Assembly (NCBI GenBank): GCA_016187495.1
Contig: JACPJP010000012.1
Span: forward strand, 81,150-145,149
Direction of reading: 5' to 3'
Origin: Candidatus Woesearchaeota archaeon
Lineage (GTDB): Archaea > Nanobdellota > Nanobdellia > Woesearchaeales > GW2011-AR4
Length of the DNA stretch: 64,000 nt
Both the position numbers and the translations under genes were made by a program. Below are positions 42,493 to 47,835 of this stretch, piece after piece. How positions within the stretch are numbered: position 1 is the first letter of the stretch; each line of letters starts with the position of its first letter. The notes under the pieces were generated by a model. It made no database searches, was not told the origin of the DNA, and was given only the letters and a program-made list of their open reading frames with translations.

Positions 42493-43641
42493 TTAAACCG
42501 TTCTATTTATTTTTTTCATAACCTTATCAATCAAAGAAATAACATCACTTACCTGTATCTTCTTTACACAAGCATTTTCCCTTCCGAATTTGCACTCTCC
42601 AACTTCACCTTTATGCACATTAATACATGCATCCTGATTGTCTTTTTTGTAAAGGTAATAGCCATTTTTTCCAAATGGAGCGAATCTTACAGGCAAATTA
42701 CATCCAAACAGGCCTATTGTTTTTACGCCTTGCGCAGCAGCAACATGCATCGGACCAGAATCATTGCCAATAAAAAGTTTGCACAGGCTAATTAAATAAA
42801 ACATTTCTCTCGTGTTAATTTTTCCAGATGTGTCAAACAAATTATTTTTATTAATTACTAAATCTTGTATTTCATTAATATACTTTTTTTCTTCATTATT
42901 CCCTATTAGGATTATTTTGGCATCATACCTTTTTATTAAGTAGTCAGCGACTTTAGCAAACCTTTCTTTTGGCCACATTCTTGATTTCGCGCTTTCAGCC
43001 GCGCCTACACCAAATCCAACAAGGGAACCTTTTTTTCCAATGTTAAACTTTTTTAACAGGCTATCAACATTTTTTTTATCATTAGCAGAAAAATTTAATT
43101 TGTTTAATCTGTCTATAATCTTTTTTATTCCTAATGGGTTTAATAGGTCTAGAAACGTATAAACAACATGCTGTTTATCATTGTAATAGACTTTATCCGT
43201 ATATAATCTCGATCTTATCCCATGGGAAAATCCAATTCTGCGCTTTCCGACAAAAAATGCAACAATAGAGGAAACATTTAGGTATTCTTCCATATCTATA
43301 ACCAGATCATATTTTTTGAAATTTCCAAGCATGAATAATGTTATGGAAGTGGGATTTAAGCCCAATAACCTAACATTGCTGATGCCCCTATTCTTAAAAT
43401 AAGCCTCTTTGTTCCTGTCGGTAACTAAAACATCTATACTTCTGTTTTTGTATTTCTGCCTTAGGGCTTCTATCGCAGGCAATGTCAGTACAGTTTCCCC
43501 CAAGCCCCATAGCTGTATTACGAGGATATTGTTCAAACCGTTAATTTTTTTGCCTTCAAATATTTTGAGTATAGACAAAAATAAACAAGCCAAGCAGCCT
43601 ACATATTTGTCCAGAAATTTTATCAATTTAACAGATGCCAT
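42493..43641 (-). CDS. GT9 family glycosyltransferase (heptosyltransferase-like)
   Basis: 382 aa. ILVIQLWGLGETVLTLPAI and the hallmark GNDSGPMHVAAAQGVKTIGLFG. Confidence 0.8.
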   Translation of the reverse strand: MASVKLIKFLDKYVGCLACLFLSILKIFEGKKINGLNNILVIQLWGLGETVLTLPAIEALRQKYKNRSIDVLVTDRNKEAYFKNRGISNVRLLGLNPTSITLFMLGNFKKYDLVIDMEEYLNVSSIVAFFVGKRRIGFSHGIRSRLYTDKVYYNDKQHVVYTFLDLLNPLGIKKIIDRLNKLNFSANDKKNVDSLLKKFNIGKKGSLVGFGVGAAESAKSRMWPKERFAKVADYLIKRYDAKIILIGNNEEKKYINEIQDLVINKNNLFDTSGKINTREMFYLISLCKLFIGNDSGPMHVAAAQGVKTIGLFGCNLPVRFAPFGKNGYYLYKKDNQDACINVHKGEVGECKFGRENACVKKIQVSDVISLIDKVMKKINRTV

Positions 43642-43973
43642 TATTTCCTTTTTATAGCTATGTTTCTGACAACTTCTTCAAGCTTTTTTTGGTTCTTCCT
43701 GACTAATGTATAAGTATAGAAGACGATGAATACAATAAAAAGGAAACCCCCTATAATAAACAAATCCAAAGTTCTTCCGATATTCAAGGTGGTAAGGATA
43801 GGGTCAAGTACCTGTGGAAACAGGGTAACAGCAACAAATGCCCCCCAGAATACAAACCAAAAGCTGTACTCTTTTATTGTAAACTCCCTCCTTTTGTACT
43901 GCAGGAAGGTGTAGTACATCATAAAGAATCCAAACAATACACCTAAAATCTGAATTCCAAGTATTTTCGCCAT
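43641..43973 (-). CDS. DUF2304-like small membrane protein (usual GT2 companion)
   Basis: 110 aa, 3-4 TM helices. Positioned directly after a GT2 gene, as is typical for DUF2304. Confidence 0.55.
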   Translation of the reverse strand: MAKILGIQILGVLFGFFMMYYTFLQYKRREFTIKEYSFWFVFWGAFVAVTLFPQVLDPILTTLNIGRTLDLFIIGGFLFIVFIVFYTYTLVRKNQKKLEEVVRNIAIKRK

Positions 43974-47600: not shown

Positions 47601-47835
47601 TTTCTGCTGCAGATTTTTCTTTTTTCTTGAATATGTTCTTTATTTTGCTAAGGTCGATAGCAATTTCGTCATCATCTTTTTTTATTTCTGTAGCATCATT
47701 ACTAACAGCAACTTGGCTATCTTTTGCTTCTTCCTTTGACTCAGGCTTTGCATCTTCTCTTTTCCTTTTGAAGAAGCCTTTTATCTTGCTGAAGTCAATA
47801 GAAATCTCATCTTCTTTTTCGTACATAAAAACCAC
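44692..47835 (-). CDS. aglB: Archaeal oligosaccharyltransferase AglB (STT3 family), copy 1
   Basis: 1047 aa. 13-TM-type N-terminal region with TIDPYYWLRF in loop 1. WWDFGHWFKYWADRPVTFDG (WWDYG motif). Large C-terminal soluble domain. Confidence 0.9.
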   Translation of the reverse strand: MVFMYEKEDEISIDFSKIKGFFKRKREDAKPESKEEAKDSQVAVSNDATEIKKDDDEIAIDLSKIKNIFKKKEKSAAEKSGAASEKGGKEEDEISIDFSKIKNIKGIFKGRQSKTEHESEEDVSVDFKKISDFVIRYRALFLLLIPIFLSIFLRMQTAYLPMTDQWAANSVINSIRSQISSQISQQYPNLPQQNKDALINNELQKVLGEQKLVIDQQIYAGSQAIKSRLQDEFGQSYLPTIDPYYWLRFTKNIIKNGHPGDEIKNGKPYDNHMLAPTGRGMPFDIFLAYFTAYLFKFLSFFNPNLSLATVAFYVPVLISALTIIPIFFITKKIAGNFGGFIAATILAIHPSFLSRTMGGIFDTDGFNILFPLSIAWIFIEALEAKNVRNVAILSILAGLLIGIYSFTWGGWWYIFDFILVSTVLYMMYYSFVHRQELMRSFTSFTKQEAIRNSITFLGVFFIVSALSVSFFVSYEHFKKFYTNPTGFAKLKEVGITTIWPNVFTTVAEQNPASLSHVVNQVGLGKIFFFLIALIGINLTLKTKGRKNLFFFAGILAWYLVIVMLNVQNLNTFLILISIPIAIRGFIAIWESDTEIEIKYAILLILWFISTIYASTKGIRFTLLAVPPFAIGFGIALYHAYKYSSDWAAKALQINKLTSKTIAMIVLGLLLIPPYISSYDTATNFAPDFNDAWAISLERIKEDSKPNAIINSWWDFGHWFKYWADRPVTFDGTSQNTPPAHWIGKVLLTGDEKLAIGILRMLDCGSREGFITISKYTKDGTEAIDVLYEIMPLEREYAKKILVEKFNEKWAEEILNKTHCEPPENYFITSEDMVGKSGVWAHFGSWSFDKALVYNILKKKEYSNDLDKSIKFLQERFNYSKNDAEKLFYEVQSIITSDQANSWIAPWPGYAGSAGCEKIGNLTLSCAISGIPLIANLSTNEIYAESTTGRVHPKLASFPTDQGITLKEYNESIITLQNGRSLGVALVKDGESYNAVVMDSDLTSSIFTRLFYQEGVGLRHFKKFSDETTLFGGRIIVWKVDWEGNDTA
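47425..47814 (-). repeat. Four copies of an ~18-aa motif ((E/D)DEI(S/A)ID(F/L)SKIKxxFK) in the cytoplasmic N-terminal tail of AglB copy 1
   Basis: aa 8-25, 55-72, 91-111 and 120-137. Copies 1 and 3 share the identical 20-nt string GATGAGATTTCTATTGACTT. Confidence 0.75.

What the first reader, a model, noticed from the sequence alone, without database searches (positions are those of the whole stretch)
42493..47835. AglB copy 1 is followed by a GT2 - DUF2304 - GT9 block: heptose may enter an N-glycan
Seen: aglB (44692-47835), a GT2 gene, a DUF2304-like small membrane gene and a second GT9 (with the canonical GNDSGPMHVAAA motif) are co-directional, with gaps of 53 nt or less. Inference: an oligosaccharyltransferase co-transcribed with a heptosyltransferase-like enzyme suggests a heptose-containing dolichol-linked glycan. 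I do not know of heptose being a described component of archaeal N-glycans.
Basis: inference. Interest (0 to 1): 0.6.

Follow-up and report, generated by a model that had tools for sequence, protein, structure and literature searches.

The report
Archaeal AglB operon with heptosyltransferase
In a tiny uncultured groundwater archaeon (Woesearchaeota type), the enzyme that attaches sugars to protein asparagines sits next to a lipid-sugar synthase pair, a bacterial-LPS-type heptose transferase and an ADP-heptose pathway. This layout is kept in dozens of related genomes, so these archaea very probably put heptose on their surface N-glycans, but heptose is already known in one archaeal N-glycan.

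Summary
On the minus strand lie aglB (44692-47835), a 220-aa GT2 (43976-44638), a DUF2304 gene (43641-43973) and a GT9 with GNDSGPMHVAAA (42493-43641). The gaps are 53, 2 and -1 nt.

- An ADP-heptose operon (hldD, hldA, gmhB, hldC) lies 5 kb downstream on the same strand.
- Among 80 species-representative DPANN genomes, GT2+DUF2304 sit directly upstream of the GT9 in 62/74 loci. AglB does so in 47/54, and hldA+hldC lie downstream in 39/44.
- In two genomes the GT9 start overlaps the hldC stop.

GT2+DUF2304 match the GacI/GacJ and PpgS/Rv3632 type of polyprenyl-phosphate sugar synthase. The GT9 models as a WaaF/WaaC-like GT-B enzyme. It has an extra N-terminal hydrophobic helix and a family-wide Glu where WaaC has its catalytic Asp.

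Two corrections:
- Co-transcription with aglB is not shown here. A conserved TATA-like box lies in the aglB-GT2 spacer.
- Heptose is already described in the Thermoplasma acidophilum N-glycan, and ADP-heptose clusters next to archaeal glycosylation genes have been noted before.

Verdict: a well-supported but biochemically untested new variant of an archaeal Agl cluster. Interest is moderate.

The parts
48062..49150 (-). Geranylgeranyl-reductase-family flavoprotein directly upstream of aglB. Candidate polyprenol/dolichol reductase (inferred).
   Evidence: TIGR02032 188.8 bits against a cut-off of 158.8. It scores far below the DGGGPL-reductase equivalogs. It is found upstream of AglB in 39/48 related loci.
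44692..47835 (-). AglB copy 1, an archaeal oligosaccharyltransferase (STT3/GT66) with its catalytic motifs intact.
   Evidence: PF02516 162.9 bits. Alignment to human STT3A pairs DPYY (D242), FDTDG (D362/D364) and WWDFG (712-716) with the catalytic motifs. TVAE (E508) is seen by inspection.
44662..44670 (-). TATA-like box TTTTTAAAT in the 53-nt aglB-GT2 spacer, 23 nt before the GT2 ATG. Candidate promoter of GT2-DUF2304-GT9; its T5 run could also terminate aglB.
   Evidence: Sequence. The same box lies 20-27 nt before the GT2 ATG in 10 relatives whose spacers are otherwise diverged.
43976..44638 (-). Short soluble GT2, a predicted dolichyl-phosphate sugar synthase of the GacI/PpgS/AglJ type.
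   Evidence: PF00535. The best NCBIfam hits are PpgS (118.9 bits) and AglJ (103.3 bits), both below their cut-offs. The nearest solved structures are ArnC, P. furiosus DPMS and GtrB, all polyprenyl-phosphate glycosyltransferases. No TM segment.
43641..43973 (-). DUF2304 small membrane protein, GacJ/Rv3632-like. Predicted activating partner of the GT2.
   Evidence: PF10066 77.2 bits, three hydrophobic segments. GacJ is a DUF2304 protein that binds and stimulates GacI; Rv3632 does the same for PpgS (10.1101/180810). The median GT2-DUF2304 gap is 3.5 nt in 56 loci.
42493..43641 (-). GT9 glycosyltransferase (the finding's 'second GT9'), a predicted ADP-heptose-dependent heptosyltransferase with an N-terminal hydrophobic helix. 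Its start overlaps the DUF2304 stop by 1 nt.
   Evidence: PF01075 110.6 bits. AF2 model pLDDT 84.7. Foldseek top hits are 3TOV, WaaF and WaaC. Glu49 stands at the WaaC D13 position in 116/119 homologs. It is linked to hldA+hldC in 39/44 loci and overlaps hldC in L039 and L088.
39780..40574 (+). RHH plus nucleotidyltransferase-like gene. In relatives it lies convergent with the GT9 and divergent from the heptose operon.
   Evidence: PF00483. Present in that position in 37/44 loci. Here it is separated from the GT9 by an S-layer-like gene and a Band_7 gene.
34984..38838 (-). ADP-heptose operon: cupin 38485-38838, DUF1643 37901-38488 (insert), hldD 36977-37894, hldA 36013-36996, gmhB 35469-36026, hldC 34984-35466.
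   Evidence: TIGR02198 377.4 bits against 345. TIGR02199 189.8 against 181.5. TIGR02197 265.5 against 274.6. NF006506 155.1 against 178. Pfam.
14504..15511 (-). GT9 copy 'b', with the canonical Asp and no N-terminal helix. It heads a second glycan operon (GT9b-GT2-GT4-PMT_2) that is contiguous in relatives.
   Evidence: PF01075 62.2 bits. 1700 homologs, all DPANN where named, found on the same contigs as the other GT9. Context in L090 and L091. Asp in 115/119 homologs.
9652..14514 (+). 1620-aa surface protein with a signal/anchor segment at each end and extreme N-X-S/T enrichment. Candidate main AglB substrate.
   Evidence: 116 sequons against 39.8 +/- 5.6 (maximum 59) in 1000 shuffles. Ig-like domains. 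Terminal hydrophobic segments.

Best explanation
The block is part of a conserved DPANN (Woesearchaeota-type) N-glycosylation supra-operon: GGR-like reductase, AglB, GT2+DUF2304, GT9, then the ADP-heptose operon.

Proposed mechanism:
1. [quoted passage not shown] The gene assignments are shown; the product is inferred.
2. The GT2, activated by its DUF2304 membrane partner as in GacI/GacJ, loads a hexose or HexNAc onto dolichyl phosphate (inferred by homology).
3. The GT9 is held at the membrane by its extra N-terminal helix. It transfers heptose from ADP-heptose to a dolichol-linked sugar or oligosaccharide on the cytoplasmic face (inferred).
4. After flipping, AglB copy 1 transfers the heptose-containing glycan to Asn in sequon-rich surface proteins, such as the 1620-aa protein in the same island (inferred).

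In this genome GT2-DUF2304-GT9 probably has its own promoter. It is not strictly co-transcribed with aglB.
For: Gene identities.

Synteny:
- Seven of seven independent metagenomic loci at 52-87% GT9 identity keep the order GGR-AglB-GT2-DUF2304-GT9 / NTP-transferase / cupin-HldD-HldA-GmhB-HldC.
- In 80 species-representative genomes, GT2+DUF2304 are directly upstream in 62/74, AglB in 47/54, and HldA+HldC downstream in 39/44. Both blocks are present in 27/35.
- The aglB-GT2 gap is <=0 nt in 32/56 loci. The median GT2-DUF2304 gap is 3.5 nt and the median DUF2304-GT9 gap is 47 nt.
- In L039 and L088 the order is cupin-HldA-GmhB-HldC-GT9, with HldC and GT9 overlapping. This ties the GT9 to the ADP-heptose donor independently of AglB.

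GT9 protein:
- GT-B fold closest to Veillonella GT9 3TOV (TM 0.77/0.85), WaaF and WaaC. The protein-heptosylating TibC ranks lower, at TM about 0.56.
- The donor-site residues align: R221 with WaaC K192, D294 with D261, and E250/E251 with the EE of WaaC's PHEEE stretch.

Other parts:
- The precedent for the GT2+DUF2304 pair is GacI/GacJ and PpgS/Rv3632. The nearest solved structures are all polyprenyl-phosphate GTs.
- AglB1 has intact catalytic motifs.
- A hyper-sequon surface protein lies in the island.
- Heptose occurs in a real archaeal N-glycan.
Against: There is no biochemical, glycoproteomic or transcript evidence, and no RNA runs were found.

The GT9 acceptor is unknown.

The island also encodes several other GT-C enzymes (PMT_2, YfhO-like, DUF6541, a second AglB). 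These could route a heptose-containing glycan to O-linked sites or to lipids.

All synteny comes from one archaeal lineage, so part of it may reflect shared ancestry rather than functional coupling.

The GT9 scores below the NCBIfam cut-offs for HepI, HepII and HepIII. It carries Glu instead of the catalytic Asp.

A conserved TATA-like box separates aglB from GT2 in this genome.

No GmhA, no priming phosphosugar transferase (PF00953) and no flippase were identified in the window. The rest of the genome could not be searched.
Confidence: 0.6

Rival explanations
1. The GT9 is a genuine ADP-heptose heptosyltransferase, but its product is not the AglB substrate. Heptose would go to another surface glycoconjugate: a membrane glycolipid or lipoglycan, an O-linked glycan built by the PMT_2/YfhO-like GT-C enzymes, or a polysaccharide. 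Adjacency to aglB would reflect a general surface-glycan island.
For: The window holds at least four other GT-C-type membrane proteins and many GT2/GT4 genes.

In L005 and L006 a PMT_2 GT-C overlaps the 3' end of the GT9.

All characterised GT2+DUF2304 pairs feed extracytoplasmic GT-C decoration of polysaccharides, not OST substrates.

The DUF2304-GT9 spacing (median 47 nt) is looser than aglB-GT2. Seven of 54 loci have the GT9 without an AglB upstream.
Against: AglB is the one large neighbour kept upstream in 47/54 loci, whereas other GT-C genes come and go. From my own knowledge of the Haloferax volcanii agl cluster (not checked here), genes clustered with aglB have generally proved to act in N-glycan assembly. 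These small genomes show no other conserved acceptor system next to the GT9.
Confidence: 0.25
2. The GT9 transfers a sugar other than heptose, or heptosylates proteins directly as TibC/Aah do. The link to the heptose operon would be coincidental or would serve the other GT9 (copy b).
For: The GT9 scores below every heptosyltransferase equivalog cut-off. Glu replaces the catalytic Asp. A second GT9 with the canonical Asp exists and could be the real heptose user. TibC does appear among the structural matches.
Against: HldA+HldC lie within 10 kb in 39/44 loci, and hldC overlaps this GT9 (not copy b) in L039 and L088. The nucleotide-sugar-binding residues align with WaaC and WaaF. TibC matches are clearly weaker (TM 0.56) than the LPS-type enzymes (TM 0.69-0.85). 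The conserved N-terminal hydrophobic helix fits a membrane-bound lipid acceptor.
Confidence: 0.1
3. The adjacency is phylogenetic inertia in one lineage, with no functional coupling between the four genes.
For: All 80 loci are from Woesearchaeota/Nanoarchaeota-type DPANN genomes.
Against: The order survives down to 44-50% GT9 identity and about 40% AglB identity, while the flanks are repeatedly rearranged. In this window, insertions of Band_7, an S-layer-like gene, LAGLIDADG, DUF1643 and a transposase leave the block unbroken. Start and stop codons overlap or abut in most loci.
Confidence: 0.05

Closest known systems
Haloferax volcanii Agl pathway (AglB with AglJ/G/I/E on Dol-P, and AglD/AglR/AglS adding the final mannose)
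   Same: aglB is clustered with a GT2 dolichyl-phosphate sugar synthase (the GT2's second-best NCBIfam hit is AglJ), soluble cytoplasmic GTs and sugar-nucleotide genes. GT-C enzymes are present that could decorate the glycan outside the cell.
   Different: The sugar is heptose and the transferase belongs to GT9, a family that, as far as my searches found, has not been characterised in archaea or on dolichol-linked acceptors. The GT2 has a DUF2304 partner. The lineage is DPANN.
Bacterial LPS inner-core heptosyltransferases WaaC/WaaF/WaaQ (GT9) with the GmhA-HldE-GmhB-HldD pathway
   Same: GT-B fold (TM 0.69/0.79 to WaaF 1PSW). The GNDSGPMHVAAA donor motif, basic residue and acidic residues align. 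The genes are linked to ADP-heptose synthesis genes.
   Different: There is no lipid A or Kdo in archaea, so the acceptor must differ. Glu49 replaces the catalytic Asp family-wide. There is an extra N-terminal hydrophobic helix. The protein scores below the equivalog cut-offs. HldE is split into HldA and HldC, and no GmhA lies in the window.
GacI/GacJ (Streptococcus pyogenes) and PpgS/Rv3632 (M. tuberculosis) polyprenyl-phosphate HexNAc synthases
   Same: A short GT2 without TM segments is followed immediately by a roughly 110-aa, three-helix DUF2304 protein. The best NCBIfam hit is PpgS.
   Different: The system is archaeal, so the carrier is presumably dolichol. It is tightly coupled to an oligosaccharyltransferase rather than to a GacL/Rv3779-type GT-C. 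The sugar is unknown. The GT2 scores below the PpgS cut-off (118.9 against 370).
Thermoplasma acidophilum N-glycan containing D-glycero-D-galacto-heptose
   Same: It is an experimentally described archaeal N-linked glycan that contains a heptose (PMC11407970; PMC12448462).
   Different: The heptose isomer differs: the genes here predict L-glycero-D-manno. The lineage differs. The papers read here give no biosynthetic genes or transferase for T. acidophilum, whereas here the genes are known but not the glycan.
ADP-heptose clusters noted beside archaeal glycosylation genes (Iplasma, PMC3750248; Methanococcus maripaludis KA1/JJ, PMC12667266)
   Same: An ADP-heptose pathway is embedded in S-layer or N-glycan gene regions, and the authors proposed a role in surface glycosylation.
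   Different: The passages read from those reports do not mention a GT9 next to AglB, the GT2/DUF2304 pair, or lineage-wide conservation.

Membership tests
CAZy GT9 / Pfam PF01075 heptosyltransferase family | Sequence match to the family model above the curated threshold | tested here: met
   PF01075 110.6 bits against a gathering score of 22, covering residues 109-337.
CAZy GT9 / Pfam PF01075 heptosyltransferase family | Two-Rossmann GT-B fold superimposable on WaaC/WaaF | tested here: met
   AF2 model pLDDT 84.7, pTM 0.86. Foldseek: 3TOV TM 0.77/0.85, 1PSW 0.69/0.79, WaaC 0.62-0.67/0.72-0.77.
CAZy GT9 / Pfam PF01075 heptosyltransferase family | Catalytic Asp in the N-terminal G-D motif (WaaC D13) | tested here: not met
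   The aligned position is Glu49. It is invariant in 16/16 aligned sequences and present in 116/119 homologs. The change is conservative and could still act as a general base. GT9 copy b keeps Asp (115/119).
CAZy GT9 / Pfam PF01075 heptosyltransferase family | ADP-heptose binding residues of the C-terminal domain (WaaC K192, D261 in the GxDxGxxH motif; residue roles recalled from memory) | tested here: met
   R221 aligns with K192 and D294 (GNDSGPMH) with D261. E250/E251 align with the EE of WaaC's PHEEE stretch; I take this for E222, with the numbering from memory. R221, D294 and E251 are invariant in A1.
CAZy GT9 / Pfam PF01075 heptosyltransferase family | Uses ADP-heptose as donor | not testable with these tools
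   Indirect only: hldA+hldC lie within 10 kb in 39/44 loci, and hldC overlaps the GT9 in L039 and L088.
LPS heptosyltransferase I/II/III equivalogs (TIGR02193/02195/02201) | Score above the NCBIfam equivalog cut-off | tested here: not met
   HepII 107.3 against 134.6, HepIII 99.2 against 170.2, HepI 63.4 against 185.3. It should not be filed as WaaC, WaaF or WaaQ.
GacI/GacJ-type polyprenyl-phosphate sugar synthase pair | Short GT2 related to polyprenyl-phosphate glycosyltransferases | tested here: met
   PF00535. The top NCBIfam hits are PpgS and AglJ, both below cut-off. The top PDB hits are ArnC, PfDPMS and GtrB.
GacI/GacJ-type polyprenyl-phosphate sugar synthase pair | DUF2304 three-helix membrane partner encoded immediately downstream | tested here: met
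   PF10066 77.2 bits against 25.5, with a 2-nt gap. Three hydrophobic segments. The pairing is kept in 62/74 loci.
GacI/GacJ-type polyprenyl-phosphate sugar synthase pair | Forms polyprenyl-P-sugar, with stimulation by the partner | not testable with these tools
   Precedent only (10.1101/180810).
Archaeal AglB (STT3/GT66) | STT3 domain plus the catalytic acidic motifs and WWDYG | tested here: met
   PF02516 162.9 bits and PF21436. D242 (DPYY), D362/D364 and WWDFG 712-716 align to the STT3A motifs.
[quoted passage not shown] | HldA kinase and HldC adenylyltransferase above equivalog cut-offs | tested here: met
   TIGR02198 377.4 against 345. TIGR02199 189.8 against 181.5.
[quoted passage not shown] | GmhB phosphatase and HldD epimerase | tested here: inconclusive
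   The best hits are the right families but fall just below cut-off. GmhB scores 155.1 against 178 and HldD 265.5 against 274.6.
[quoted passage not shown] | GmhA (SIS-fold sedoheptulose-7-P isomerase) | tested here: not met
   No SIS-domain protein was found among the window ORFs scanned. A conserved cupin heads the operon.

The most novel reading that the evidence does not exclude
aglB-GT2-DUF2304-GT9 is a minimal, self-contained N-glycosylation module. The GacI/GacJ-like pair primes dolichyl phosphate with one (N-acetyl)hexose. The Glu-type GT9 extends that Dol-P-sugar directly with L,D-heptose, and GT9 copy b possibly adds a second heptose. The result would be an LPS-inner-core-like heptoside built on dolichol, which AglB then transfers to Asn. 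This would give GT9 a new acceptor class (polyprenyl-phosphate sugars). It would also explain why DPANN archaea make ADP-heptose.
Probability: 0.22. Interest if true: 0.75.

Novelty: new variant of a known kind. Interest (0 to 1): 0.5.

Why it matters
Functional ADP-heptose enzymes have been reported in archaea, but what the sugar is used for was left open (commentary on Tang et al. 2024, PMC11461863). This conserved operon gives a concrete, testable answer for a large uncultured lineage: heptose is handed by a GT9 enzyme to a dolichol-linked glycan and placed on surface proteins by AglB.

If confirmed, three things would follow.
- GT9 heptosyltransferases would be known to act beyond LPS and autotransporter substrates.
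- There would be a genetic basis for heptose in archaeal N-glycans.
- DPANN episymbionts would be shown to display a sugar typical of the Gram-negative LPS core. That could bear on their cell-cell contact with hosts.

Tried and rejected
- Transcript evidence: no RNA run holds the locus. Only groundwater DNA metagenomes do.
- The sigma-70 promoter and intrinsic-terminator scan gave fewer promoter-like sites than shuffles (20 against 25.9). It is not appropriate for an archaeon, so I disregarded it.
- A TibC/Aah-like direct protein heptosyltransferase was considered. It ranks well below the LPS-type GT9 enzymes in the fold search, so I kept it only as a minor rival.
- Filing the GT9 as HepI, HepII or HepIII was rejected because all scores are below the equivalog cut-offs.
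- A single-sequence locus search found only two loci. The alignment-based search was needed. One of its two search patterns contains the Glu49 motif, so Glu conservation was re-tested on the independently found homolog set.
- Literature searches for GT9 or heptosyltransferase in DPANN or other archaea found no prior description of this operon.
- MAG labels such as 'uncultured Methanosarcinales' and 'Flavobacteriales' on some relatives were treated as binning or labelling artefacts. This is my inference, based on their near-identical gene order to Woesearchaeota MAGs.
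Full report
**Observation.** The four ORFs lie on the minus strand at the stated coordinates.
- aglB: 44692-47835, 1047 aa.
- GT2: 43976-44638, 220 aa.
- DUF2304: 43641-43973, 110 aa.
- GT9: 42493-43641, 382 aa.

The gaps are 53 nt, 2 nt and a 1-nt overlap. Pfam confirms each assignment well above threshold: STT3 162.9 bits, Glycos_transf_2 77.1, DUF2304 77.2 and Glyco_transf_9 110.6. GNDSGPMHVAAA is at residues 292-303 of the GT9. A first GT9 lies at 14504-15511 and a second AglB at 58236-61166. The block is held at 94-100% of sampled words by groundwater metagenome runs from two studies.

Five kb downstream on the same strand is an ADP-heptose operon.
- hldA, 36013-36996: TIGR02198 377.4 bits against a cut-off of 345.
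- hldC, 34984-35466: TIGR02199 189.8 against 181.5.
- gmhB, 35469-36026: 155.1 against 178.
- hldD, 36977-37894: TIGR02197 265.5 against 274.6.

The operon is headed by a small cupin. Directly upstream of aglB is a geranylgeranyl-reductase-family gene, with TIGR02032 at 188.8 bits against 158.8. The whole 64-kb window is a surface-glycosylation island.

**Who it is.** The GT9 has 725 homologs. The top 120 are 52-87% identical. Where they carry a name, it is Woesearchaeota or Nanoarchaeota.

**Synteny.** Seven of seven independent metagenomic loci at 52-87% GT9 identity show the same order. The order is GGR-like, AglB, GT2 (220 aa), DUF2304 (110 aa), GT9, a convergent NTP-transferase-like gene, then cupin-HldD-HldA-GmhB-HldC-GT2.

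An alignment-based scan of one genome per species returned 80 loci, all DPANN-type. I mapped the window's proteins onto them with tblastn.

| Feature relative to the GT9 | Loci with it / loci with enough flank |
|---|---|
| GT2+DUF2304 directly upstream | 62/74 |
| AglB within 3 kb upstream, same strand | 47/54 |
| GGR upstream | 39/48 |
| HldA and HldC downstream | 39/44 |
| Both blocks | 27/35 |

ORF-level spacing in 56 loci:
- aglB to GT2: median 0 nt, with 32/56 at or below 0 and 41/56 at or below 30.
- GT2 to DUF2304: median 3.5 nt.
- DUF2304 to GT9: median 47 nt.

In L039 and L088 the GT9 directly follows cupin-HldA-GmhB-HldC and overlaps hldC. This links this GT9 to ADP-heptose independently of AglB.

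In this window the ancestral arrangement is interrupted but the block is intact.
- An S-layer-like gene and a Band_7 gene lie between the GT9 and the NTP-transferase-like gene.
- A LAGLIDADG gene lies immediately upstream of the cupin that heads the heptose operon (38825-39655, overlapping the cupin start), and DUF1643 lies within the operon.
- A transposase/MBOAT/DltD segment lies after hldC.

**The parts.**

*GT2+DUF2304.* GacJ is a DUF2304 protein. It binds the GT2 GacI and raises its GlcNAc-P-undecaprenol synthase activity. Rv3632 does the same for PpgS (10.1101/180810). The window's GT2 has no TM segment. Its best NCBIfam hits are PpgS and AglJ, both below cut-off. Its nearest solved relatives are ArnC, P. 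furiosus Dol-P-Man synthase and GtrB, all polyprenyl-phosphate glycosyltransferases.

*GT9.* The AlphaFold model (pLDDT 84.7, pTM 0.86) matches these structures:
- Veillonella GT9 3TOV: TM 0.77/0.85.
- WaaF: TM 0.69/0.79.
- WaaC: also among the top matches.
- TibC: clearly lower, about 0.56.

Profile alignments place R221, D294 and E250/E251 at the positions of WaaC K192, D261 and the EE of its PHEEE stretch, which I take for E222. Residue roles and numbering are recalled from the WaaC literature, not tested here.

Two features set the family apart.
- Glu stands at the position of the catalytic Asp (WaaC D13) in 116/119 homologs. GT9 copy b keeps Asp in 115/119.
- A conserved N-terminal hydrophobic helix (residues 4-24) is absent from the bacterial enzymes and from copy b.

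The GT9 scores below the equivalog cut-offs for HepI, HepII and HepIII. It is a GT9-family member but not an orthologue of any LPS heptosyltransferase.

*AglB1.* It has DPYY (D242), FDTDG (D362/D364) and WWDFG (712-716) aligned to the catalytic motifs of STT3A.

*Candidate substrate.* The 1620-aa surface protein at 9652-14514 has 116 N-X-S/T sequons, against 39.8 +/- 5.6 in shuffles.

**Co-transcription.** No RNA data exist for this locus. The 53-nt aglB-GT2 spacer contains TTTTTAAAT (44662-44670, minus strand) 23 nt before the GT2 ATG. The same box sits 20-27 nt before the ATG in ten nearer relatives whose spacers are otherwise diverged. That position fits an archaeal TATA box driving a leaderless or near-leaderless GT2-DUF2304-GT9 transcript (inference). 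Its T5 run could also end the aglB transcript. In most more distant relatives aglB and GT2 abut or overlap. Functional linkage is therefore well supported. Strict co-transcription with aglB in this genome is not.

**Mechanism proposed.**
1. ADP-L,D-heptose is made by the adjacent operon.
2. GT2/DUF2304 make a Dol-P-sugar.
3. The membrane-anchored GT9 adds heptose to a dolichol-linked sugar or oligosaccharide on the cytoplasmic side.
4. After flipping, AglB1 transfers the glycan to sequons of surface proteins.

Gene identities, fold and linkage are shown. Donor, acceptor and final destination are inferred. I put this at 0.6.

The main rival, at 0.25, is that heptose goes to another glycoconjugate through the other GT-C enzymes of the island. 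All characterised GT2/DUF2304 pairs feed polysaccharide decoration rather than an oligosaccharyltransferase. A non-heptose donor or direct protein heptosylation is unlikely (0.1). Pure phylogenetic inertia is less likely still (0.05).

**Comparison with what is known.**
- The Thermoplasma acidophilum N-glycan contains D-glycero-D-galacto-heptose (PMC11407970; PMC12448462).
- ADP-heptose clusters beside archaeal surface-glycosylation genes have been remarked on in Iplasma (PMC3750248) and in M. maripaludis KA1/JJ (PMC12667266).
- Functional heptose enzymes were reported in archaea with their role left open (PMC11461863).

I found no description of a GT9 coupled to AglB and a GacI/GacJ-like pair, nor of this Glu-type GT9 family. 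Other windows of this scan have met the same supra-operon. Those notes agree with mine but are not independent evidence.

**Verdict.** This is a new variant of a known kind: an archaeal Agl cluster that uses a GT9 and ADP-heptose. Interest is 0.5.

**Limits.** GmhA, a priming enzyme, flippases and genome-wide co-occurrence could not be checked.

Noticed in passing
window 9652-14514 (+): A 1620-aa Ig-domain surface protein with hydrophobic segments at both ends carries 116 N-X-S/T sequons, against 39.8 +/- 5.6 in composition-preserving shuffles. It is a likely heavily N-glycosylated S-layer-type substrate. Its gene splits the GT9b operon, which is contiguous in relatives (L090, L091).
   Followed up: partly
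window 44662-44670 (-), in the aglB-GT2 spacer: A conserved TATA-like box (TTTTTAAAT) lies 20-27 nt before the GT2 start codon in this window and in 10 relatives with otherwise diverged spacers. It suggests a leaderless GT2-DUF2304-GT9 transcript. In more distant relatives aglB and GT2 abut instead.
   Followed up: partly
window 28856-34984: hldC and the 235-aa GT2 (28149-28856) are adjacent in relatives. Here they are separated by about 6 kb carrying a 383-aa membrane protein, a DltD-like gene, an MBOAT O-acyltransferase and an IS4/Tn5-type transposase (29452-30816). This looks like a mobile insertion bringing an O-acylation module.
   Followed up: no
window 5461-9352 and 14504-15511 (-); loci L090, L091: GT9 copy b heads a second conserved operon, GT9b-GT2(238 aa)-GT4(335 aa)-PMT_2 GT-C(about 500 aa). 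Its family (1700 hits) is even more conserved (68-81% among the top 120) than the GT9 of the finding, and it lies on the same contigs.
   Followed up: partly
related loci L011-L089: Only 18 of 44 related loci with enough downstream sequence have recognisable HldD and cupin genes next to hldA/gmhB/hldC. Many relatives may therefore use ADP-D,D-heptose, or may encode these steps elsewhere. The figure depends on the bit-score thresholds I chose.
   Followed up: no
window 37901-38488 and 38825-39655 (-): A DUF1643 gene lies within the heptose operon and a free-standing LAGLIDADG endonuclease-like gene lies at its head, overlapping the cupin start. Both are absent from the same positions in relatives.
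   Followed up: no
PDB hits of alignment A1: The chloroplast NDH subunit PnsB1 (7WFF, 9GRX) matches the N-terminal part of this GT9 family and also has Glu at the WaaC-D13 position. It is a curious parallel with a presumably non-catalytic GT9-like protein.
   Followed up: no
loci L001, L014, L015, L017 and others: Many MAGs that carry the same Woesearchaeota-type supra-operon are deposited as 'uncultured Methanosarcinales archaeon'. One homolog is labelled Flavobacteriales. These are probably labelling or binning artefacts.
   Followed up: no
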